Shown here piece after piece: positions 4,463-56,315 of a stretch of 58,547 nt of DNA. Within the stretch, counting starts at the first letter, position 1. Every line of letters begins with the position of its first letter. A program made the translations under genes and the position numbers. The notes under the pieces are model-generated. The model saw only the letters and a list, made by a program, of their open reading frames with translations. It ran no database searches and was not told the origin of the DNA. This stretch comes from a phage: NCBI GenBank assembly GCA_027568095.1, contig GCA_027568095.1_4956.1; one strand, 5' to 3'.

Positions 4463-4960
4463 AAATTTGTCTCCCATAAATTTTAAATTAGTTTCCCACA
4501 GATACCCACGGGTTGTCTACACGCCCTGTTTTACAGCTAATACGATGTTAGTATTAAGTTTATAACCTGTCATGGTTTATAAACACATAATCCCAACAAT
4601 TTCAAAGACTTGCATAAAAACATAGATTACAATAGGTATCTCCCAGACTTTTATTTTAGCTCTATTTACAGCTTACACTACTCTAGTATTATCTCTATCT
4701 TTCTATACTACTTCTTATTTATATCTATGTTTTCTATGTTATCTATAAAAAGATAATAAAAAGAATAAGATAGAGAGGGGTTGGTTAAAAAATAAACATG
4801 ACGAAATCTATACCAATCTATGATTTTGATACTATGACAGGATTAACTGTAACACTAATACTATCATAGTGTTCTATCTTAGTATTAGCAGTTTGCGAGC
4901 AATCCTATGATAGTCAGTCGTTCTACCATAGGACTAGCTGTAACACTATGACAGGATTAC

Positions 4961-4988
4961 TTGCATAGCTCTCACCCCGTGGTAAAAT
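4961..4988 (+). promoter_or_regulatory. sigma70-like promoter for 5008 gene (TTGCAT-16-TAAAAT, TG-extended)
   Basis: -35 TTGCAT 4961-4966, -10 TAAAAT 4983-4988, then AAGGAGGG RBS and ATG 5008. Confidence 0.5.
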
Positions 4989-5007
4989 AAAAGAAAAGGA
5001 GGGTGAA

Positions 5008-5775
5008 ATGAAAAAGAATATTTTTAAAGAATTTGCTGATGCAATGGGTAGTTTACGCGAGGCTGTTGATTATCTTGCTAAACACGACGTTAAAATTTCA
5101 GTTGGTCGTTATAATGAATGGATGGCTGGCAAGCAGTACCCACTGGCTACCACGCTTAACGTCATCATGAAAAAACTTGGGTTACCGAATCTGGACCCGG
5201 TGATTGATGTTGGTGAGGTTGTTCTTAAACGCACAATACCAGTTACCGAACTGCGTCAGAAATTACCACACAGACGTTTTGCTAATAACTACTGGCAACG
5301 TGTCAGATACGTTGATTCACAGATCCTGGAAGCTGTTCACGGTCACGACGTGTGGACACGGTTTGAGGCGATGTGCGGTAATTTTGAATGTGCAAGATAC
5401 GTGTTACGCAGGAATTTAAACAAACACACAATTACTGACAGTTGGATTCAGAATGGTTTGCGCCGGGGCTGGATCCCGGAATGTGTAAACGTAATGGTCG
5501 ATTTGCTTGAAAAATACGAAGGCACTGGGACACCGTTTAACGTGATGGTTTGTGAACCACCTGTAGCACGAGTGGAACCACCTGTAGCACGAGTGGAAGC
5601 ACCTGTAGCACGAGTGGAAGCACCTGTAGCACGAGTGGAAGCACCTGTAGTCGATGTCAGCGATTTGAAGGAGAAAATCAGACTGTATGCGTTATCACAC
5701 AATCCTCATTGCGATGTAGATAATATGCCGGATGATGTTGTTTTGATGATGTATAAAGATATGATGGGCCAATGA
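5008..5775 (+). CDS. hypothetical protein with in-frame PVARVE tandem repeats
   Basis: Strong RBS; 21-bp repeat x about 4.6 encodes (E)PPVARVE units. Confidence 0.5.
   Translation: MKKNIFKEFADAMGSLREAVDYLAKHDVKISVGRYNEWMAGKQYPLATTLNVIMKKLGLPNLDPVIDVGEVVLKRTIPVTELRQKLPHRRFANNYWQRVRYVDSQILEAVHGHDVWTRFEAMCGNFECARYVLRRNLNKHTITDSWIQNGLRRGWIPECVNVMVDLLEKYEGTGTPFNVMVCEPPVARVEPPVARVEAPVARVEAPVARVEAPVVDVSDLKEKIRLYALSHNPHCDVDNMPDDVVLMMYKDMMGQ
5554..5655 (+). repeat. 21-bp tandem repeat (gaa[c/g]cacctgtagcacgagtg) x about 4.6, in-frame coding
   Basis: Direct inspection of 5554-5655. Confidence 0.8.
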
Positions 5776-15945: not shown

Positions 15946-17613
15946 TCAGATTAATGAACTTGCAACCCTTGCAGCGAGTTCATTAGCTTCACGAGTACGT
16001 AACCCCTGAGCACTAAGTACATCAACACCAAACACCCTGTAAAACATCTTGTAAGCGTCATCAACGGGTATACCTTTGTCACGCTGAATACCGGCCCATG
16101 TGGTAATCATGCTACGTAATTTACGCTGTGCATCGTTCATTGCCTGAATGTTTTTCATTGCACTGTAAGCTGCAACAGGGGGTGCACCAGCGTTTAACAT
16201 TTGTTCTTTTACCGCAACAGGATCACGGTCGATTATCACAACTGCCCGGCGTAATTCTTCCAGTTCTTCAGGTGTCAGTTCACGTAAATTACCTTCTACA
16301 CGATCCGGGCCTGAGCGTTCGGCTTTTTCAGGAATGTGACCACAATACGGGCAGCACGGAAGACCAGACGGATAAGGCTTCAGACACGGGGGAATACCGT
16401 TATCAGGATCACCCTTGTTTGTGCATGTTGTATTACTGTTCCCACTGCTGTTTGACGAACGACGGTCGCGGTCATCTAAAGACCAGTTGTAGTGCTGATC
16501 GGGAAGTGGAAAACCACGGGCCAGAAATCGACGAACATTACCGACTTTATCAATAATCAGTGCTTTTTTACCGGGTTTGAAACGCAATGGGCGACCCATC
16601 TGTTGTACAAACAAAGAGTAAGATTCAGTGGGACGGTCCATTACTGCACATTCCATTGCCGGGCAATCGTACCCTTCACCGAATAAATCGTTGTTACATA
16701 GCACGAGTGTTTTACGTCGTTCAAAACGTTCCAGAATATCTGCTCGTTCCTGATTGCTGTTTCGCGAACTGATCGCTTCTGCAGGAATGCCAGCATCGCG
16801 AAATTCTTGTGCAAGTGCTTCAGCAGAATCCACATCACACGTAAACACAACAGTGAGCAAACCGTCTGCATACGTTTTCCACGTACTGACGGTATCACCA
16901 ACGATGTTTGAATCTTCCATCGCTTTTTTTAACGCAGAGGGTTTGTAATCGCCCGTAGTATGAGAAATCATTTCTGCAGTTAATTCCAGGTCTGTTTCAG
17001 CCATAATCAGACGATAATCAGCCAGATGTTGTTGACTGATTAACTCACGCATTGACGGACCAATGATCATCTGATCTGCGTAACCTGACGCATGACGACC
17101 CAAGCCTTTACCGTCAGCACGGATCGGTGTAGCTGTAACACCCAGACCTTTAGCGTTAGGGAATTTTTCCCGGCAGTCTCCCCACTGTGTGCCACGCACC
17201 AAGTGATGCGCTTCGTCGCTGAATACAAGAGACACGTCGTTGTACCATCGTTCGTACTGTTTTGTTCTTAACGTTTGTGAACTGGTAATAACGATGTCAG
17301 CGCCGGGGGAATAGGTACTGTAACCAAGCGTTTTCATCTGCTGATTAGTCGCAAATTTAACAGTGTCTTTTTGCGCTATAAATCTGTGTGCTAACCCCTG
17401 ACGAGCAACAGCCATTGCGATTTGGCTAACCAGTTCTTTACGGTGCGCCTGAATGACTTTTACACCGTCGGATTTTACCAGTTCTGCAAGCGCTCGGGTC
17501 TTTCCTGCACCCGTGGGAAGCACAAGAATCACGTCATTAGCACCGTTCGACCATGCCTGGCGCACGTTGTTAACTGCATCTTGTTGGTAATAACGAAGTG
17601 GTTGTTGACTCAC
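15946..17613 (-). CDS. superfamily 2 DNA helicase (DEAH box) with C-terminal zinc ribbon
   Basis: LPTGAGKT (Walker A), FSDEAHH (motif II), CPYCGH; GTG start with AAGGA RBS. Confidence 0.6.
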   Translation of the reverse strand: MSQQPLRYYQQDAVNNVRQAWSNGANDVILVLPTGAGKTRALAELVKSDGVKVIQAHRKELVSQIAMAVARQGLAHRFIAQKDTVKFATNQQMKTLGYSTYSPGADIVITSSQTLRTKQYERWYNDVSLVFSDEAHHLVRGTQWGDCREKFPNAKGLGVTATPIRADGKGLGRHASGYADQMIIGPSMRELISQQHLADYRLIMAETDLELTAEMISHTTGDYKPSALKKAMEDSNIVGDTVSTWKTYADGLLTVVFTCDVDSAEALAQEFRDAGIPAEAISSRNSNQERADILERFERRKTLVLCNNDLFGEGYDCPAMECAVMDRPTESYSLFVQQMGRPLRFKPGKKALIIDKVGNVRRFLARGFPLPDQHYNWSLDDRDRRSSNSSGNSNTTCTNKGDPDNGIPPCLKPYPSGLPCCPYCGHIPEKAERSGPDRVEGNLRELTPEELEELRRAVVIIDRDPVAVKEQMLNAGAPPVAAYSAMKNIQAMNDAQRKLRSMITTWAGIQRDKGIPVDDAYKMFYRVFGVDVLSAQGLRTREANELAARVASSLI

Positions 17614-17649: not shown

Positions 17650-17694
17650 AGTTTAAAATAGTTCTTGACGCATTGCAACTTATTCCTCTAACAT
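17650..17694. promoter_or_regulatory. overlapping divergent promoter pair (plus TTGACG-18-TAACAT; minus TTGCAA-17-TAAACT)
   Basis: Conserved GTTTAAAATAGTTCTTGACGCATTGCAA block between divergent operons. Confidence 0.5.
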
Positions 17695-17727
17695 CTGCAT
17701 CAACGAAAGGCGAGTGTAAAATAATTC

Positions 17728-17756
17728 TTGACAGATTACACAACACCTTTTAAAGT
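17728..17756 (+). promoter_or_regulatory. conserved-family promoter (TTGACA-17-TAAAGT)
   Basis: AAAATAATTCTTGACAGATTACA motif upstream of 17789 gene. Confidence 0.5.
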
Positions 17757-17788: not shown

Positions 17789-18550
17789 ATGTTCGAAGTT
17801 AAATTACTTGTAACTGCTCCGGGTCTGGAAACTGCGATCAACAATCTGGCAAATGCTATTGCGACTGGTGCAGCACCGCTCATGGCTGCACAGGGCGACG
17901 GTATCACTAAAGAAATCGTTTCTGTCGTTGCTGAATCACTGCCTGTTGTATCTGCAACAACTGAAGATATTGATGATAACGAAACCAGCACTGAAGAGTT
18001 CGACAAATGGGGTCTGCGTCACGATCCGCGTATCCACACTGACAGTAAATCTCTGAACAAAGGTGATGGTCTGTGGCGTCAAAAGAAAAAACTGGATGAA
18101 GCGTTTGTTGACGGTGTTAAACGTGAACTTATTGCTGAAGCAGTTGAAGCAGGGCGTTATACCGGACCTGCAGAACTTGCACCGGGTTATGTAGCACCTG
18201 TTGATCCTGCTCCAGCGGTTCCTGCCGCTCCGGTAGCTCCAGTTGTACCAGCAGCACCGGCTGTACCAGTCGAGCAACCTGTAACCACGGATCCGGCTAA
18301 AGTTTATAACACCCAGGTTCTTCAGTCAGCACTGATGCAGATGTTTGGACAAATTACGGGTGAACGTGCCGCGCCACTAAGTCAGCGGATCATGGGACTG
18401 TATGAAACTCAGAACGTGATGCAGATTGATGACCCGGTAAAACTGAAGTCTATCATCGAACTGATTGAACGTATTAACGCTACCCCAGCATCTGCTGAAG
18501 ATATTGTCGGTCAGGCTGAATCTGTTAAACAAATGGGTGGAGCATTCTGA
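17789..18550 (+). CDS. hypothetical protein with Pro/Ala/Val-rich linker
   Basis: GAGGAA RBS upstream of ATG 17789; first gene of plus replication block. Confidence 0.5.
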   Translation: MFEVKLLVTAPGLETAINNLANAIATGAAPLMAAQGDGITKEIVSVVAESLPVVSATTEDIDDNETSTEEFDKWGLRHDPRIHTDSKSLNKGDGLWRQKKKLDEAFVDGVKRELIAEAVEAGRYTGPAELAPGYVAPVDPAPAVPAAPVAPVVPAAPAVPVEQPVTTDPAKVYNTQVLQSALMQMFGQITGERAAPLSQRIMGLYETQNVMQIDDPVKLKSIIELIERINATPASAEDIVGQAESVKQMGGAF

Positions 18551-19710: not shown

Positions 19711-20610
19711 ATGGCACAGAAAGAATCTTTTGTAACTCCGGTTGGTCGTCTGGTTGGCGGTTCTTTTTTCGATATCAACACTCATGACCACGAAAATAAA
19801 CCGTTAGCACCTGAAAAACACAACTGGTGGGTTGGTCTGGCGTTTCCTAAAACAGCGGCGAACTGGTGGGAAGAACAAGGTGAACTGGGTGCGGTATTCC
19901 AGGCGATCATGCGAGCGGCTAACTCACACTATGTGAACGGCGAACCACAACAACCCACTTTCGCATGGAAAATTATTAATGGTGACGATCCGAAACATGC
20001 GAGTAAAACTGGTTATGCTGGTCACTGGGTAATTGGTTTCTCACGCAACGTGGCTATTGACGCGTGTCCGGTTTATAACGCAGCGTACCAGCTAGTTATT
20101 GATAAAAATCTGGCGAAAAAAGGTTATTATTACCGTATCAGCGGATCATCTGTTGCAAACGGTCGTACAGGTAATCAGGCTGGTGTGTATATCAACATGG
20201 AAATGGCGCAATTGCTTTATGCAGGTGAAGAAATCATTTCCGGTCCGGCTCCTGCTTCTGTGTTCGGTGCTGCTCCTGCAATGCCTGAAGGCGCACGTCC
20301 GATCGGCGTAACACCAGCGGCAGCACCTGTAGCAGCACCTGTAGCAGCGGCAGCACCTGTAGCAGCGCCTACACCAGCGGCAGCACCTGTAGCAGCGGCA
20401 GCACCTGTAGCAGCGCCTACACCAGCGGCAGCACCTGTAGCAGCGCCTACACCAGCGGCAGCACCTGTGAAGGTAATGACTGAAAAAGCAGGTGGTGCTA
20501 CTTACGAACAGTTTATTGCGCAAGGTTGGAACGATGAACAACTGATCGCTAATGGTTATATGGTAATGACCACCCCGGCCCCGAATTTTCTCAACGGTAA
20601 CGGTTACTGA
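19711..20610 (+). CDS. possible ssDNA-binding-like protein with PA-rich repeat linker and C-terminal FIAxGWND motif
   Basis: Follows the nuclease gene; (AAPVAAPTPA)n repeats then YEQFIAQGWNDEQLIANGY; SSB assignment is inference. Confidence 0.4.
   Translation: MAQKESFVTPVGRLVGGSFFDINTHDHENKPLAPEKHNWWVGLAFPKTAANWWEEQGELGAVFQAIMRAANSHYVNGEPQQPTFAWKIINGDDPKHASKTGYAGHWVIGFSRNVAIDACPVYNAAYQLVIDKNLAKKGYYYRISGSSVANGRTGNQAGVYINMEMAQLLYAGEEIISGPAPASVFGAAPAMPEGARPIGVTPAAAPVAAPVAAAAPVAAPTPAAAPVAAAAPVAAPTPAAAPVAAPTPAAAPVKVMTEKAGGATYEQFIAQGWNDEQLIANGYMVMTTPAPNFLNGNGY
20311..20468 (+). repeat. imperfect 27-30-bp tandem repeats (core gcagcacctgtagcagc), in-frame
   Basis: Direct inspection; core occurs about 7 times. 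Confidence 0.7.
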
Positions 20611-42829: not shown

Positions 42830-43239
42830 TATTCCACATCCTCATAATATGCAGTTCCACCGATGCTGTATCCAGTATATTCACCAGTCTGAAACTTTTT
42901 CAAAACTTCGTCATCAGTTATCAACGTACCAACAATGACGCCTGTCTGATCCAGTTTATCAACCAGACCAAAACTTGCCGCAATGTCTTCAGTCATCGGG
43001 AACGCAAACACAACTTTCCCAACAGGTTGTTCATTGTGCATATTGTCCATGATGCGCTGATCAGAATTCATGAAGTCCAACCATGCTTTCAGAGTGACAT
43101 CCTCGGGAAATTGCTCGTTGTCCGTGTCTGTGTAAATTTCTAACTGGCCTGTCTCCTGATTACGTTTTTTACAGATGCTACCCCAACCGAATACCATACG
43201 TAGTGAGTTGTCAACCTTATTAACTTTTACGTTAATCAC
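42829..43239 (-). CDS. hypothetical head-module protein
   Basis: ORF; translationally coupled to neighbours. Confidence 0.4.
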   Translation of the reverse strand: MINVKVNKVDNSLRMVFGWGSICKKRNQETGQLEIYTDTDNEQFPEDVTLKAWLDFMNSDQRIMDNMHNEQPVGKVVFAFPMTEDIAASFGLVDKLDQTGVIVGTLITDDEVLKKFQTGEYTGYSIGGTAYYEDVE

Positions 43240-43583
43240 GGGGATTGTCCTCGTATTGTTTCAACATGACTAAATTCTAACATTTCAGATGAATAATTGC
43301 ACTGGTGATACACGCTGTTTACAACGTTACCGAATATCTCAGAAAGATTCTTGATCGGTTCAACAGCAGTCGTTACTGGTTCAACAGTAGTCATTACTAG
43401 TTCAACACCGTCCAGATGTTCAGCAACAACCTGGAAAAAAACTGTATTAGTTTCACGGTCAATAATTACCACTGTGCTGGAACTATCTTCAACAATGCTG
43501 AATGAGTAGTCGTAACGATCACCGTGAATTTTACGGGCGCGACGAATGAATTCGTCTGTAGCAACTCTGATGTTCGGATCCAT
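43236..43583 (-). CDS. hypothetical protein (115 aa)
   Basis: AGAAGGG RBS 8 nt upstream of ATG 43583; downstream of promoter 43614-43642. Confidence 0.4.
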   Translation of the reverse strand: MDPNIRVATDEFIRRARKIHGDRYDYSFSIVEDSSSTVVIIDRETNTVFFQVVAEHLDGVELVMTTVEPVTTAVEPIKNLSEIFGNVVNSVYHQCNYSSEMLEFSHVETIRGQSP

Positions 43584-43613
43584 ACAATCAACCCTTCTTG
43601 TTTTCTTAACCAC

Positions 43614-43642
43614 AGGGTAGTTGTGTCGGTGTAATCCGTCAA
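43614..43642 (-). promoter_or_regulatory. conserved-family promoter (TTGACG-17-TACCCT)
   Basis: Reverse complement of 43637-43655 is AAAATAATTCTTGACG. Confidence 0.5.
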
Positions 43643-43941
43643 GAATTATTTTACGTATAGATTCATGGGAAGTATGCGACTCCCTATACCTTTTAAACCT
43701 CTCCTACTTGCAGCAACTTTTACTACTTATACTACTCTTCTGTTTATCTATGTTTATTATGTTTTCTATAAAAAGAATAAGATAGAGAGGGGTTGGTTAA
43801 AAAATAAACATGACGAAATCTATGAATTTATGATCTACTAATACAGATTCAGTATTAGCTGTAACTCAAAATCATGAAACCCATGTAAAACCATGTACAG
43901 TTAGTACACGTTCTGTATTAGCTGTATCTTTAAAATAATTC

Positions 43942-43970
43942 TTGACGGATTACAGACGGTAGGGTATCTT
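43942..43970 (+). promoter_or_regulatory. conserved-family promoter (TTGACG-17-TATCTT)
   Basis: TAAAATAATTCTTGACGGATTACA upstream of 44017 gene. Confidence 0.5.
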
Positions 43971-44016
43971 TATCTCGGGAAGCGGCAATGGGTCGCTGGT
44001 GAATGAGGATGTGAAA

Positions 44017-44415: not shown

Positions 44416-44796
44416 ATGAAGAAACTGATTCTATGCGCAATGTTAACAACCCTGACAGCCTGTGATAACGCTGCTGATGTTGCCAGTCGTAACGTTGCAA
44501 CCGCTGCAGCTAACTTTGAAGTAAATCGTCGTATCGTTTTCTATAACGTTCGTAACGGTGAGTATCTTTTGTCTATCGAAGGTCGTTGTGCCCGTGAGAA
44601 CACTAGCAAAGAGATCGAAATCACCTGTAAAACTGGTCCGAATGACGTTAAGAAACACTTTATGGGGTTAACCACGGAGGTAACTTATTTCATTGAACAA
44701 ACAGACCCTTCACCAACAGATCAGTATCGTTATCGTGTTACGTTTAACCCGATGCAAATTCTCCCGGATCTAAATATCCGTCACCCTGGGGAATAA
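44416..44796 (+). CDS. lipoprotein (signal peptide with lipobox LTAC)
   Basis: MKKLILCAMLTTLTAC N-terminus. Confidence 0.55.
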   Translation: MKKLILCAMLTTLTACDNAADVASRNVATAAANFEVNRRIVFYNVRNGEYLLSIEGRCARENTSKEIEITCKTGPNDVKKHFMGLTTEVTYFIEQTDPSPTDQYRYRVTFNPMQILPDLNIRHPGE

Positions 44797-45375: not shown

Positions 45376-46299
45376 TTGACTAAACGAAAAACAGAACATG
45401 AAAGACTTTCAGAGATTTCAGAAATTTGCAAAGGTACTATTTATCATTTTGTTAGATTCTTAAATGGTTACAAGAATGCATCAAGTAGACTAATAATGCA
45501 TTGTCAAAAACATGGTGAATGGGAAACATCCTCTGATTTGATAGTGAATGGTAGAAATTTTTGTAAGAAATGTAGTAATGAGAACATAGCACTAAAAAAT
45601 AGTATAGACCAAAAAGAATATGAAAAACGTATCACTAATATTTGTAACTCGCGAGGTTATAAATTTATAAAATGGATTGAAAATTATCATGGTGTTCGCA
45701 CAAAAGCATTAATAGAATGTACTAAACATGGTCAGTGGGTGTCTTCCGGCAACAACATTACTATAAATAAAAGTTTCTGTAAGAAATGTTATTTTGAAAA
45801 TAAAAAGACACCATTACATATAAGAGAAAAAGAGATAAATGAAAAATGTTTGTCATTAAATTATGAATTTTTGGGTTGGGTCAATGGGTATGTTAATCAA
45901 TACAGTAAGATAAAAATTAAATGTCAAAAACATGGTGAATTTATAACAACACCTACAACATTATTACATACTGGCAGACGTTGTGCAGGTTGCGCTACAA
46001 CAGGTTTTAAAATCAAAAACAAAGCTAGCTTATATGTTTTAAGATCTCTATGTGGTAGTTATGTTAAAATAGGTATTAGCAACAATGTTGAAAATAGAAT
46101 AAAAATATTGAAGAAAAGAACACCTTTCGAATTCAATGTTATTGAAATATATAATTCTGATGGTAAAACCATTCGTTCACTTGAAAAAGATTTTCATTCT
46201 CATTTTGAGTCAGCAGAGTTGACTGGGTTCGATGGTTGTACTGAGTGGTTAAAATGGAATCCAAATATAACCACTCTAATACGTATAATCACGGGATAA
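45376..46299 (+). CDS. GIY-YIG/T5orf172-like nuclease domain protein with three Cys-rich repeats
   Basis: C-terminal LYVLRS...YVKIGIS...R...E pattern; three CxKHGxW...CKKC repeats; visibly AT-rich. Confidence 0.5.
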   Translation: MTKRKTEHERLSEISEICKGTIYHFVRFLNGYKNASSRLIMHCQKHGEWETSSDLIVNGRNFCKKCSNENIALKNSIDQKEYEKRITNICNSRGYKFIKWIENYHGVRTKALIECTKHGQWVSSGNNITINKSFCKKCYFENKKTPLHIREKEINEKCLSLNYEFLGWVNGYVNQYSKIKIKCQKHGEFITTPTTLLHTGRRCAGCATTGFKIKNKASLYVLRSLCGSYVKIGISNNVENRIKILKKRTPFEFNVIEIYNSDGKTIRSLEKDFHSHFESAELTGFDGCTEWLKWNPNITTLIRIITG

Positions 46300-47248
46300 C
46301 ATTTATATCTTGAGGGAGAGAATAAGCAACCCTGCAACGGCAATTAATCACATTCGCTGCACTACCGTTAGGATCACGAGGGAACATAAGTGGTCCTAAC
46401 GGCGTTGAAAACGGTCTGTCCATTGGTATCCAACCATTCGTTTCACCTGTGGAAATATGCGCGTCACGTGTCCGACCATCCTTCCTATACAACCAACGTT
46501 TTAATAATTCATTACTGATCGACCCCGTAACCTGACCCTGACGAATAGCCTGGTCCTGACCAACGGATATAGCACGAAGTGATTCAGTACGCGCTATTGT
46601 CTCTGTACGCTGTTTTACGTAACGCAAGCGTGTCTGTTCGATTATCTGGTCAATCTTCGCCTGTGATAGTTTCCCGGCACTTACAGCGTTCTTTGCACTG
46701 TCTGTAACAGTGGTCAGACTATTCACATAACCTGCTTCACCTTTTTCCAGTGCTGATCGCAGACGTTGAACCGTCATTTCCTGCCGTGTGGTTAACCCTA
46801 TTGATGATCGAAAATCACGGGCTATCTGACGCGGATTTCGTCCAGTTACCACACCTTGGTTAACAGCAATCTGAACAGCTTTGACTGTTTCGTCACTGAC
46901 TTCACGGATCAGTTGTCCGACATAATTGTTGATGTATGTACTGACCTGTGGGGTGACCAGACTGAACACAACCGGACCTGTTACAGCCGCTTTCGGTAGA
47001 ACCTGAACGACTACACGACCTGATTCGGCGATCGCATCTTCAATAACCGGGCGCAACTGTGCACTAAGTTCATCAGGGAGTGTTTCAAGAATGGGAAGTA
47101 ATCCGGCAATACCCTGAGTTTCAATGATGTATTCCAGGTTAGCTAACGACTCACTACGACGCACGTTTTCCCACACGACATCAAGTGCTTCGCGAATGCG
47201 AGCGTCATACTTGTCTGAAATATCCGGGTATGGGTCTTTAGTAGCCAT
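46289..47248 (-). CDS. head morphogenesis protein (Mu F-like position)
   Basis: 319 aa between portal and scaffold genes. Confidence 0.45.
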   Translation of the reverse strand: MATKDPYPDISDKYDARIREALDVVWENVRRSESLANLEYIIETQGIAGLLPILETLPDELSAQLRPVIEDAIAESGRVVVQVLPKAAVTGPVVFSLVTPQVSTYINNYVGQLIREVSDETVKAVQIAVNQGVVTGRNPRQIARDFRSSIGLTTRQEMTVQRLRSALEKGEAGYVNSLTTVTDSAKNAVSAGKLSQAKIDQIIEQTRLRYVKQRTETIARTESLRAISVGQDQAIRQGQVTGSISNELLKRWLYRKDGRTRDAHISTGETNGWIPMDRPFSTPLGPLMFPRDPNGSAANVINCRCRVAYSLPQDINVIP

Positions 47249-55495: not shown

Positions 55496-56191
55496 TTAGC
55501 AGCAACCAGTTGGAGGAGTCGGAGGAGTAGGCAGTTTGAAGTTAACCAACTGTTCGACCTGGTTAATTTTGCAATTCAGTTGTGCAGTTTGCGCCAACTG
55601 AGAATTAGCAAAACGAGATTCCTGAAGCTGAGATTTCAGGTCACAAATCAGAACAGCCTGAGACTGTGCGAACTGGTCACGGATCAGTGCACGAGTTGCT
55701 TCCGCCTGACGTTCGATATTCAGGTTAGTTTCGCAGCAACACTTCTCAGCCGCTAATTGTGCCTGGAAAGAACGAGTCAGTGCCGCAGTTTCAGACGCAC
55801 AGATCGCATTGGTCACAGTGTTAGTACCATTCTGAATTTGTGTATTCAGACCTGCAAAACCTTGTACAGATGCCAGCAGGTTTTGTGTGTTCTGTTGAGT
55901 GATACCGTTAAAAGTGGAAGCTGCAGCGCGTTCAACGGTCAGGTTTGTACCATTCTGACCCTGAATGGTCTGAAGAGTACCGTTATTGATGGCTTGCAGA
56001 ATAGCGTTGGTATCTACAGAGGCTTGAACTTCTACAGGACCACCAAAGTTACCGCGACCACTCCAACCGTTACCGCCACCCCAACCGTTACCGAACCAGG
56101 AACCGATAAGACCACCGATACCACCTCCAAGTGCAGCCGCGCCAGCTTCACCGCCGAAACCGCCAGTGGGAACTAAAGTCATGTCAGACAT
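55496..56191 (-). CDS. glycine-zipper / N,Q,T-rich protein with C-terminal coiled coil and terminal Cys pair
   Basis: AGGAG RBS 7 nt upstream; N-terminus GGFGGEAGAAALGGGIGGLIGSWFGNGWGGGNGW; C-terminus ...PTPPTPPTGCC. Confidence 0.5.
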   Translation of the reverse strand: MSDMTLVPTGGFGGEAGAAALGGGIGGLIGSWFGNGWGGGNGWSGRGNFGGPVEVQASVDTNAILQAINNGTLQTIQGQNGTNLTVERAAASTFNGITQQNTQNLLASVQGFAGLNTQIQNGTNTVTNAICASETAALTRSFQAQLAAEKCCCETNLNIERQAEATRALIRDQFAQSQAVLICDLKSQLQESRFANSQLAQTAQLNCKINQVEQLVNFKLPTPPTPPTGCC

Positions 56192-56315
56192 GTTGAAACT
56201 CCTGTGAGAGAATGTTAATTAACTGTAACCGATTGGTTACTTACAGGAGTATAGACCTGTTACATTAATCTAACAGGTAATTTACAAACATTTATAATGT
56301 AATTTGTCAAGAATT

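What the first reader, a model, noticed from the sequence alone, without database searches (positions are those of the whole stretch)
43614..43998. Second divergent control region carrying the same 54-bp element plus its own short repeats
Besides the conserved-family promoters on both strands (43614-43642 minus; 43942-43970 plus), this region contains the duplicate of the 54-bp element (43767-43823) preceded by a similar TACTACT...TCTATGTTT AT-rich segment, and local repeats (TATTAGCTGTA at about 43852-43862 and 43915-43925; CATGTAAAACCATGTACA). It marks the boundary between the head genes and a plus-strand accessory island.
Basis: seen in the sequence. Interest (0 to 1): 0.45.

Follow-up and report, generated by a model that had tools for sequence, protein, structure and literature searches.

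The report
Twin origin-like AT-rich sites, 9NA-like phage
The flagged region is one of two copies of a conserved module found in every 9NA-like phage examined (an easily melted AT-rich core next to repeated binding sites for a phage-specific DNA-binding protein), and it most likely acts as a replication-origin-like assembly site rather than just a promoter spacer.

Summary
A 56-nt exact repeat lies at 43768-43823 and 4756-4811. Two family promoters face outward and two 33-nt local repeats are present. The window is a whole Sashavirus/Nonanavirus (9NA-like) genome.

The repeat is not a private duplication. A ~115-125-nt core occurs exactly twice per genome in the window, 9NA and Klebsiella phage phi_KPN_H2. 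It consists of a pyrimidine-rich tract, three tandem 9-mers and a purine-rich block. The two cores are the two least stable duplex stretches of each genome.

Beside each core lie repeated binding sites (iterons), dyad-symmetric in 9NA and at locus 2 of the window. Their sequence differs between phage groups but matches between the two loci of one genome, although the loci are 39 kb apart. It also tracks the N-terminal domain type of the gene next to locus 1 (5008-5775). That gene encodes a protein modelled as two XRE-like HTH domains.

ORF and RNA readings fail.

Best reading (about 0.42): twin origin-like sites, as in SPP1 oriL/oriR. SPP1 oriR sits at the same map position, between the gp7-like gene and the scaffold gene, with morons. 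The main rival (0.3) is operator-controlled divergent transcription only. No function is demonstrated. It is a new member of a known kind, of moderate interest.

The parts
43614..43654 (-). Leftward family promoter for the head operon: UP-like AAAATAATTC, -35 TTGACG, 17-nt spacer, weak -10 TACCCT
   Evidence: 15-mer at 43638-43652 (-), one of 11 copies against 0.21 expected. Perfect inverted repeat with 43931-43954. It did not pass the strict sigma-70 scan.
43697..43809 (+). Conserved AT-rich core, copy 2: pyrimidine-rich tract, three 9-mers, purine-rich block. Candidate DNA-unwinding element
   Evidence: nhmmer profile hit, E 3e-22, with exactly 2 hits per genome. 43724-43784 is the second least stable 60-bp duplex of the genome, z 3.67.
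43746..43772 (+). Three tandem 9-mers: ATCTATGTT, TATTATGTT, TTCTATAAA
   Evidence: Read from the sequence. The equivalent TATCTATAC x3 is present at both loci of 9NA and of the other groups.
43768..43823 (+).
   Evidence: 100% identical to 4756-4811. Homologous copies in the relatives differ from it by 1-6 nt. It is the locus-2-type block, 76% identical to 9NA locus 2 against 55% to 9NA locus 1.
43838..43865 (+). Iteron 1: dyad CTAATAC-N7-GTATTAG followed by CTGTAAC
43866..43900 (+). Conserved inter-iteron spacer with tandem AAACCCATGT/AAAACCATGT
   Evidence: D2. Conserved in relatives and recognisable in 9NA.
43901..43928 (+). Iteron 2: TTAGTAC-N7-GTATTAG followed by CTGTATC. It abuts the UP element of the rightward promoter
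   Evidence: Start-to-start spacing from iteron 1 is 63 nt (D16).
43929..43970 (+). Rightward family promoter for the accessory island: TTGACG-17-TATCTT
43665..43841 (+). 58-aa ORF across the core, judged not to be the conserved function
   Evidence: The 58-aa form depends on an 11-bp deletion private to this genome. The ATG-started frame is broken in L019. Locus 1 has no start codon, and no equivalent ORF exists in 9NA, L091 or phi_KPN_H2.
4682..4797 (+). Conserved AT-rich core, copy 1 (partner locus)
   Evidence: nhmmer E 8e-26. 4712-4772 is the least stable 60-bp duplex of the genome, z 4.24.
4756..4811 (+). 56-nt exact repeat, copy 1
4530..4563 (-). Inverted iteron left of core 1; contains GTATTAGCTGTA on the minus strand
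   Evidence: D2, I1.
4665..4698 (-). Second, degenerate inverted iteron abutting core 1
   Evidence: D2 (74% to 4530-4563).
4832..4971 (+). Three 26-nt direct iterons right of core 1 (4832-4857, 4923-4948, 4946-4971). The last ends 37 nt before the HTH gene
   Evidence: D1. They share ATTARCTGTAAC with the locus-2 iterons.
5008..5775 (+). Gene for a 255-aa protein modelled as two XRE-like HTH domains. The N-terminal domain is exchangeable. Candidate iteron-binding protein

Best explanation
The region is copy 2 of a twinned, origin-like nucleoprotein site.

Anatomy. Each copy has an easily melted AT-rich core of about 120 bp: a pyrimidine-rich tract, three tandem 9-mers and a purine-rich block. 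Beside the core lie repeated binding sites (iterons). Locus 1 (4478-5007) sits next to the gene of a protein modelled with two HTH domains (5008-5775). It has iterons on both sides of its core, in opposite orientations. Locus 2, this finding, sits in the late region between the SPP1-gp7-like head gene and the protease/scaffold/capsid operon, together with moron genes. It has two iterons on one side.

Proposed mechanism. The HTH protein binds the iterons at both loci. Binding, helped by transcription from the flanking promoters, opens the core so that the phage helicase and P4-type primase can load. Locus 1 would be the main origin. Locus 2 would be a second origin or a protein-bound fork barrier, as proposed for SPP1 oriR. 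The same binding would also regulate the neighbouring promoters.

Shown: the anatomy, its conservation, two copies per genome, minimal duplex stability, and covariation between loci.
Inferred: which protein binds, that the core melts, and that replication starts there.
For: 1. Copy number and conservation. There are exactly two core copies per genome in the window, 9NA and phi_KPN_H2. Both loci are present in every related contig examined.

2. Duplex stability. The two cores are the two least stable 60-bp duplexes of the window (z 4.24 and 3.67). They rank first and second at 120 bp in 9NA, and first and second in the first 50 kb of phi_KPN_H2 (z 4.7 and 4.6).

3. Iteron types sort by phage group and occur at both loci:
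- AACAYN3RTGTT occurs only in the 9NA/L010 group. In 9NA all nine dyads with at most 1 mismatch lie in the two loci.
- CYTACCAR occurs only in the L007/L011/phi_KPN_H2 group.
- ATTARCYG occurs in the window and the Sasha-likes.
In the window GTATTAGCTGTA occurs 3 times, only at the two loci. Five of the six matches to ATTAGCTGTAAC with at most 1 mismatch lie there.

4. Covariation with the neighbouring protein. Iteron type tracks its N-terminal domain type. Window and Sasha-like proteins share the C-terminal part but have swapped N-domains, and their locus-1 iterons differ accordingly. Against 9NA it is the most diverged of seven proteins compared: 45%, versus 58% for the DNA polymerase and 81-92% for terminase small subunit (TerS), ParB-like protein, primase, helicase and protease.

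5. Fold. The N-domain is modelled as a Cro/XRE-type HTH. The central domain is a weaker match to the same fold.

6. Precedents.
- SPP1 has two origins of similar organisation (repeats plus an AT-rich unwinding element) bound by one protein. oriR lies in the late region with three morons, interrupting the virion gene order (PMC6316719).
- SaPI origins have iterons in opposite directions on each side of a central AT-rich region (PMC9371898).

7. Not a general promoter operator. None of the other 9 family promoters carries a core, the 12-mer iteron or an iteron match with at most 1 mismatch.
Against: - There is no experimental evidence of initiation, melting or binding.
- XRE-type HTH proteins are overwhelmingly transcription regulators, and the protein matches no known initiator or replisome-organiser family (no Pfam hit).
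- No DnaA boxes or exact IHF sites lie in either locus.
- Within the Sasha-like clade covariation is only partial. The window and the Sasha-likes have different N-domains but the same locus-2 dyad. A conserved second domain or another protein must therefore be invoked for locus 2.
- The C-terminal parts of the ParB-like protein and of the primase also diverge between groups, so the binder is not pinned down.
- The extremes of cumulative GC skew coincide with the two loci, but gene orientation alone explains this.
- The one detailed paper on these phages (Zeng et al. 2019, PMC6819911) could not be read.
Confidence: 0.42

Rival explanations
1. Transcription control only. The iterons are operators for an XRE-type regulator that represses its own gene and the locus-2 early island, and tunes the TerS (terminase small subunit) and head operons. 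The AT-rich core is bendable spacer DNA, or a site for a host nucleoid protein, that helps looping between operators.
For: - XRE/Cro fold of the neighbouring protein.
- Dyad-symmetric sites typical of dimeric HTH repressors.
- Iteron 2 abuts the UP element of the rightward promoter. The last locus-1 iteron ends 37 nt before the HTH gene.
- In 9NA an inverted iteron lies just upstream of the TerS start.
- The only two strict Fis-consensus matches in the window lie in the two 56-mers.
Against: - Only 1 of the 11 family promoters has adjacent iterons.
- It does not explain why a ~120-nt core is conserved across groups with different iteron types, occurs exactly twice, and is the least stable DNA of three genomes.
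- Locus 1 has no family promoter, yet it carries the same module.
- The Fis match is not conserved in 9NA or phi_KPN_H2.
Confidence: 0.3
2. Packaging signal. The repeats and bent AT-rich DNA are the pac site recognised by the small terminase, whose gene adjoins locus 1. Locus 2 would be a second pac-like site.
For: - Locus 1 lies directly upstream of the TerS gene.
- 9NA-like phages package by pac-directed headful packaging.
- Arrays of repeats in bent DNA are known for SPP1 pacL (my own knowledge).
Against: [quoted passage not shown]
- The window's TerS is 100% identical to that of L003 and L004, although their locus-1 right iterons are a different type.
- Locus 2 is about 19.5 kb from locus 1 round the circle, in the head genes.
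Confidence: 0.07
3. A small gene. The core encodes a short membrane peptide (ORF 43665-43841, annotated as a hypothetical protein in KarinMuster) or a small RNA.
For: - A 43-aa ORF (MGSMRLPIPFKP..., a hydrophobic stretch followed by KKIIKRIR) is intact at locus 2 of KarinMuster and L015-L018.
- My hand count of window against L016 gives about as many silent as replacement changes.
Against: - The 58-aa form in the window arises from a private 11-bp deletion.
- L019 has a +1 frameshift in the ATG-started frame.
- Locus 1 has in-frame stops and no start codon, and there is no equivalent ORF in 9NA, L091 or phi_KPN_H2.
- Most substitutions inside the 56-mer change the amino acid.
- RNA folding is no better than shuffled sequence, z +0.96 and -0.46.
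- There are no Rfam or tRNA hits.
Confidence: 0.05
4. Functionless leftover of a duplication, kept similar by gene conversion.
For: - Locus 1 of the Sasha-like clade carries a locus-2-type purine block.
- The same polymorphisms recur at both loci across genomes, so exchange between loci does occur.
Against: - Both copies are retained in Salmonella, Escherichia and Klebsiella phages whose TerS is about 81% identical.
- The iterons covary, and the copy number is strictly two.
Confidence: 0.03

Closest known systems
Bacillus phage SPP1 oriL / oriR (bound by gp38)
   Same: - Two distant sites of similar organisation, each with repeats plus an AT-rich unwinding element.
- One site is at the gene of the binding protein.
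- The other lies in the late region together with moron genes, interrupting the virion gene order (PMC6316719). By my own knowledge of the SPP1 gene order this is between gene 7 and the scaffold gene. Locus 2 here lies between the SPP1-gp7-like gene (46289-47248; the 9NA homologue is annotated as similar to SPP1 gp7) and the protease/scaffold/capsid genes.
   Different: - No detectable homology between the 5008-5775 product and any replisome-organiser family. Its domains are XRE-type HTH.
- Locus 1 is beside the gene, not inside it.
- The hosts are Gram-negative.
- No binding or initiation data exist.
SaPI replication origins (Rep helicase plus iterons)
   Same: A central AT-rich region has iterons on both sides pointing in opposite directions, with specificity matched between protein and site (PMC9371898). 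Locus 1 has inverted iterons on the left (4530-4563, 4665-4698) and direct ones on the right (4832-4971).
   Different: - SaPI iterons are 5-6 nt and are bound by the winged-helix domain of a self-loading helicase.
- Here the units are about 26 nt, and a dyad is clear only in part of them (9NA; window locus 2 and left of locus 1).
- The candidate binder has no ATPase domain.
- Locus 2 has iterons on one side only.
Lambda ori (O-protein iterons plus an AT-rich region) and P4 ori/crr
   Same: - Dyad-containing iterons lie next to an AT-rich stretch with purine/pyrimidine strand asymmetry.
- In lambdoid phages the specificity sits in an exchangeable N-terminal domain of the initiator.
- P4 needs two separate iteron regions and has a P4-type primase, as these phages do.
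(All from my own knowledge.)
   Different: - Lambda ori lies inside the O gene and is single.
- The P4 iterons are bound by the primase-helicase itself.
- None of this was tested here.
Cro/CI-type repressor-operator regions
   Same: An XRE-type HTH fold and dyad-symmetric sites beside promoters.
   Different: - The phage is virulent (PMC4153490).
- The protein is modelled with two HTH-like domains and a repeat-rich tail.
- The sites flank a conserved, minimally stable core, and they occur at two loci rather than at the other 9 family promoters.

Membership tests
Iteron-type replication origin with unwinding element (SPP1 oriL/oriR-like pair) | Array of repeated protein-binding sites specific to the replicon | tested here: met
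   Iterons are confined to the two loci and their type is group-specific.
Iteron-type replication origin with unwinding element (SPP1 oriL/oriR-like pair) | Adjacent AT-rich region of low duplex stability | tested here: met
   The cores are the two least stable stretches in the window, 9NA (at 120 bp) and phi_KPN_H2. Actual melting was not tested.
Iteron-type replication origin with unwinding element (SPP1 oriL/oriR-like pair) | Two sites of similar organisation, one at the binder's gene and one in the late region | tested here: met
Iteron-type replication origin with unwinding element (SPP1 oriL/oriR-like pair) | Origin-binding protein belongs to a known initiator or replisome-organiser family | tested here: not met
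   No Pfam family at E <= 0.01, and PHROG function unknown. The fold is XRE-type HTH.
Iteron-type replication origin with unwinding element (SPP1 oriL/oriR-like pair) | Replication initiates there, or the site supports protein-dependent replication | not testable with these tools
   Needs marker-frequency, 2D-gel or plasmid assays.
XRE/Cro-type repressor-operator control region | Regulator with an XRE-type HTH domain | tested here: met
XRE/Cro-type repressor-operator control region | Dyad-symmetric operators overlapping or abutting the regulated promoters | tested here: inconclusive
   Dyads are present, and iteron 2 abuts the UP element of the + promoter. Only 1 of 11 family promoters has such sites, and the promoter of the HTH gene was not found by the scan.
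XRE/Cro-type repressor-operator control region | Binding changes transcription | not testable with these tools
   Needs reporter fusions or RNA-seq.
pac site (small-terminase recognition) | One site per genome giving one set of packaging-initiation ends | tested here: not met
   There are two copies per genome, including 9NA, whereas 9NA DNA shows a single pac fragment.
pac site (small-terminase recognition) | Cleavage sites mapped at the element | not testable with these tools
   The Zeng et al. 2019 mapping could not be read and no raw reads are available.
Small protein gene or small RNA | Reading frame or RNA structure conserved among copies and relatives | tested here: not met
   ORF; RNA folding; Rfam.

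The most novel reading that the evidence does not exclude
9NA-like phages of enterobacteria run a two-site replication system like SPP1's, built from unrelated parts. A protein with two XRE-type HTH domains reads bipartite iterons. Its exchangeable N-domain reads the variable half and its conserved second domain reads the constant TAGCTGTAA-like half. The protein opens a conserved core at locus 1 to start replication. It sits on locus 2, in the head-gene region, as a second origin or fork barrier that triggers the switch to concatemer synthesis. This would be convergent evolution, down to the same map position of the second site.
Probability: 0.2. Interest if true: 0.62.

Novelty: new member of a known kind. 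Interest (0 to 1): 0.47.

Why it matters
The replication and gene-control biology of 9NA-like phages (Nonanavirus, Sashavirus) is essentially unstudied. The records examined annotate nothing at these loci, or only a hypothetical CDS.

If the reading is right:
- It gives candidate origins and a candidate origin-binding protein for a phage group now used in biocontrol and in the BASEL collection.
- It offers a natural set of swapped specificity domains with matching DNA sites for studying protein-DNA recognition.
- It provides a second, independent example of the SPP1-type pair of origins, which makes the proposed theta-to-sigma switch testable in E. coli and Salmonella.

If it is only an operator region, it still defines a regulator and its sites.

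Tried and rejected
- Exact 30-mer scan of IMG/VR for the 56-mer core found 0 hits, because relatives differ by 1-6 nt. Protein-anchored retrieval was used instead.
- Rfam at gathering scores and the tRNA scan found nothing.
- RNA folding of the core on both strands was no better than shuffles.
- A shared-8-mer matrix between locus 1 and locus 2 across genomes was too noisy because of common AT-rich words. It was replaced by explicit iteron patterns.
- No DnaA boxes (at most 1 mismatch) and no exact IHF sites lie in the loci. A strict Fis match lies in the window's 56-mers only and is not conserved.
- A CCCGTGGTnAA motif near several gene starts does not form a general promoter class. No shared late-promoter motif was found upstream of the TerL, portal or MuF-type units.
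- Cumulative GC skew peaks and troughs at the two loci, but this was set aside as confounded by gene orientation.
- Record ends of Sasha, Sergei and Solent fall inside locus 1. These were considered as physical ends or assembly breaks. The 9NA record, made from a circular contig, also starts inside its locus-1 core, so an author's choice of start point followed by later records is the simpler reading. This is an inference.
- Zeng et al. 2019 (PMC6819911) is not held. Other papers citing it give no pac coordinates.
- hhalign of the N-domain against the central domain gave only E 0.015 and probability 3%. That is weak on its own.

Full report
**What the window is.**
The 58,547-bp window is a complete genome of a 9NA-like siphophage (Sashavirus/Nonanavirus). 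The finding region with its flanks (1 kb) is 95% identical to Escherichia phage KarinMuster_Bas82. The virion genes lie in canonical order on the minus strand, interrupted by plus-strand islands of small genes. The 9NA authors noted the same layout (PMC4153490).

**Observation.**
The repeat is real and slightly longer than reported.
- 43768-43823 equals 4756-4811, 56 nt at 100%.
- A further 41 nt upstream match at 85%.
- Two members of an 11-copy promoter family (AAAATAATTCTTGAC, 0.21 copies expected by chance) face outward at 43638-43652 (-) and 43932-43946 (+). They form a perfect 24-nt inverted repeat.
- Two 33-nt units lie at 43839-43871 and 43902-43934, and each contains GTATTAGCTGTA.
- On the left is the head operon: a 125-aa ORF, an XkdF-type protease, then scaffold and capsid genes. 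On the right is a plus-strand island: phrog_4334, an RDF-like VG64 protein, and a T5orf172/CapR endonuclease-like gene.

**Not a private duplication.**
I compared both loci across these relatives:
- locus 1: IMG/VR loci L003-L012;
- locus 2: L015-L019 and L087-L091, several from the same contigs as the locus-1 set;
- GenBank records of Sasha, KarinMuster and BDX09P1;
- 9NA itself and Klebsiella phage phi_KPN_H2.

All share one architecture at both loci. In order it runs:
1. a leftward promoter;
2. a CATAGATT-like box;
3. a pyrimidine-rich tract of about 70 nt;
4. three tandem 9-mers (TCTATGTTW in the Sasha-likes, TATCTATAC in 9NA);
5. a purine-rich block;
6. iterons;
7. a rightward promoter.

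A profile of the ~125-nt core finds exactly two copies per genome:
- window: 4682-4797 and 43697-43809;
- 9NA: 16003-16125 and the record junction;
- phi_KPN_H2: 18245-18366 and 1604-1693.

**The exact 56-mer is a clade-specific overlay.**
The purine block comes in a locus-1 type and a locus-2 type. In the Sasha-like clade, including the window, locus 1 carries the locus-2 type: 76% identical to 9NA locus 2 against 55% to 9NA locus 1. This indicates an old conversion between the loci. In the relatives the two copies within one genome differ by a few nucleotides (my comparison; 4 differences in BDX09P1). The window's two copies are identical. The window alone lacks an 11-bp tandem unit (ATAAAAAGATA) at locus 2.

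**Coding and RNA readings fail.**
- The 58-aa ORF 43665-43841 depends on that private deletion.
- The 43-aa form in the relatives has its ATG-started frame broken in L019. It has no start codon at locus 1 and has no counterpart in 9NA, L091 or phi_KPN_H2.
- RNA folding is no better than shuffled sequence.
- Rfam and the tRNA scan find nothing.

**The cores are the least stable DNA of the genome.**
By nearest-neighbour energies, the two least stable 60-bp duplexes of the window are 4712-4772 (z 4.24) and 43724-43784 (z 3.67). In 9NA the two cores rank first and second at 120 bp. In the first 50 kb of phi_KPN_H2 they rank first and second (z 4.7 and 4.6).

**Iterons covary between the two loci.**
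Three iteron types sort cleanly by phage group, and each occurs at both loci of a genome although the loci are 39 kb apart.
- AACAYN3RTGTT (as TAGTTnCAnATAACAC-N3-GTGTTA) occurs only in 9NA and L010/L091. In 9NA all nine dyads with at most 1 mismatch lie in the two loci.
- CYTACCAR occurs only in L007, L011, L087, L089 and phi_KPN_H2.
- ATTARCYG occurs in the window and the Sasha-likes.

In the window the 12-mer GTATTAGCTGTA occurs three times, only at the loci. Five of the six matches to ATTAGCTGTAAC with at most 1 mismatch lie in the two loci, which together make up 1.6% of the genome. Locus 1 has inverted units left of its core (4530-4563, 4665-4698) and three direct 26-nt units on the right (4832-4971). 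Locus 2 has two units on the right only.

**Candidate binding protein.**
The gene right of locus 1 (5008-5775, 255 aa) has no Pfam hit and only 12 homologues among 5.8 billion proteins.
- The N-domain type follows the iteron type across the groups.
- Window and Sasha-like proteins share the C-terminal part but have swapped N-domains, and their locus-1 right iterons differ accordingly. BDX09P1, which shares the window's locus-1 right region through the first codons of this gene, shares its iterons.
- Against 9NA this is the most diverged of seven proteins compared: 45%, versus 58% for the DNA polymerase and 81-92% for TerS, ParB-like protein, primase, helicase and protease.

Caveat: the window and the Sasha-likes share the same locus-2 dyad despite different N-domains. 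Locus 2 may therefore be read through the constant half-site by the conserved domain, or by another protein. Linkage alone could explain the covariation at locus 1, but it cannot explain the agreement between the two unlinked loci.

**Mechanism.**
The anatomy fits an iteron-type origin with an unwinding element, present twice.
- SPP1 is the closest precedent. Its two origins, oriL and oriR, have similar organisation (direct repeats plus an AT-rich unwinding element) and are bound by one protein. oriL lies at that protein's gene. oriR lies in the late region with three morons, where bound gp38 is proposed to stall forks and trigger the switch to concatemer synthesis (PMC6316719).
- Locus 2 here occupies the equivalent map position, between the SPP1-gp7-like gene and the scaffold and capsid genes.
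- SaPI origins show the same layout as locus 1, with iterons pointing in opposite directions on both sides of an AT-rich centre (PMC9371898).
- None of the other 9 family promoters carries the core or an iteron match with at most 1 mismatch. This argues against a plain promoter-operator role.

Against the origin reading: XRE proteins are usually regulators, no initiator family is matched, no DnaA or IHF sites are present, and nothing has been tested experimentally.

**Rivals.**
- Transcription control only, 0.30.
- pac site, 0.07. It is disfavoured because 9NA has both copies but gives one pac fragment, and because TerS is identical in genomes with different locus-1 iterons.
- Small gene or small RNA, 0.05.
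- Functionless remnant, 0.03.

**Verdict.**
The feature is real and conserved. It is probably a bifunctional nucleoprotein site. It is a new member of a known kind (iteron plus unwinding-element sites, paired as in SPP1), and of moderate interest.

Noticed in passing
window 43236-43613 (-): A 125-aa ORF at the head of the head operon carries a KIHGDRYDYS motif. The same motif pulled in about 60 distant viral loci. The ORF is absent from 9NA, where locus 2 directly precedes the protease gene. It looks like an inserted accessory gene with a CapR-like domain.
   Followed up: partly
window 45376-46299 (+): A 307-aa protein with three CapR stretches plus a MUG113/T5orf172 domain (PHROG: endonuclease) lies in the island right of the finding. 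KarinMuster's island lacks it, which suggests a mobile endonuclease gene.
   Followed up: no
window 44416-44796 (+): An RDF-like protein (Pfam Phage_VG64, phrog_478, 'recombination directionality factor') is encoded in a phage with no integrase and a virulent lifestyle.
   Followed up: no
window 5542-5667: 21-nt tandem repeats lie inside the HTH-protein gene and encode PVARVEA units. The copy number varies among homologues (P0003 has more), and the units are absent from the 9NA-type proteins.
   Followed up: partly
window 20285-20498: A 10-copy array with alternating 18- and 12-nt spacing lies inside ORF 19711-20610. By position this is the gene annotated as a Gp2.5-like annealing protein in KarinMuster, a correspondence I did not check.
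   Followed up: no
window 4783-4797 and 43795-43809: GGTTAAAAAATAAAC fits a strict Fis consensus (GNNYAWWWWWTRNNC). These are the only two matches in the genome, both inside the 56-mers. The match is not conserved in 9NA or phi_KPN_H2.
   Followed up: partly
window 43766/43767 (site of an 11-bp deletion): Only this genome lacks the ATAAAAAGATA tandem unit at locus 2. KarinMuster, BDX09P1 and L015-L019 all carry it. The deletion fuses a frame and creates the 58-aa ORF.
   Followed up: yes
window, whole genome: Cumulative GC skew has its maximum near 5-6 kb (locus 1) and its minimum near 43-44 kb (locus 2). This is probably a by-product of gene orientation.
   Followed up: partly
window 56218-56229 (+): This is the only iteron-like match (ATTAACTGTAAC, 1 mismatch) outside the two loci. 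It lies in the intergenic stretch upstream of gene 55496-56191 and is possibly chance.
   Followed up: no
window 17655-17669 and 17718-17732 (+): Two family promoters lie in tandem, 63 nt apart, between the start of the minus-strand helicase gene and the plus-strand replication genes.
   Followed up: no
L092 (IMGVR_UViG_3300036785_000282), upstream of the protease gene: A distant relative (protease 72% identical) also has an AT-rich stretch followed by its own repeats (GTTTCAC...GTGTCAC and ATACCGGAACGGTAT palindromes) at the locus-2 position.
   Followed up: no
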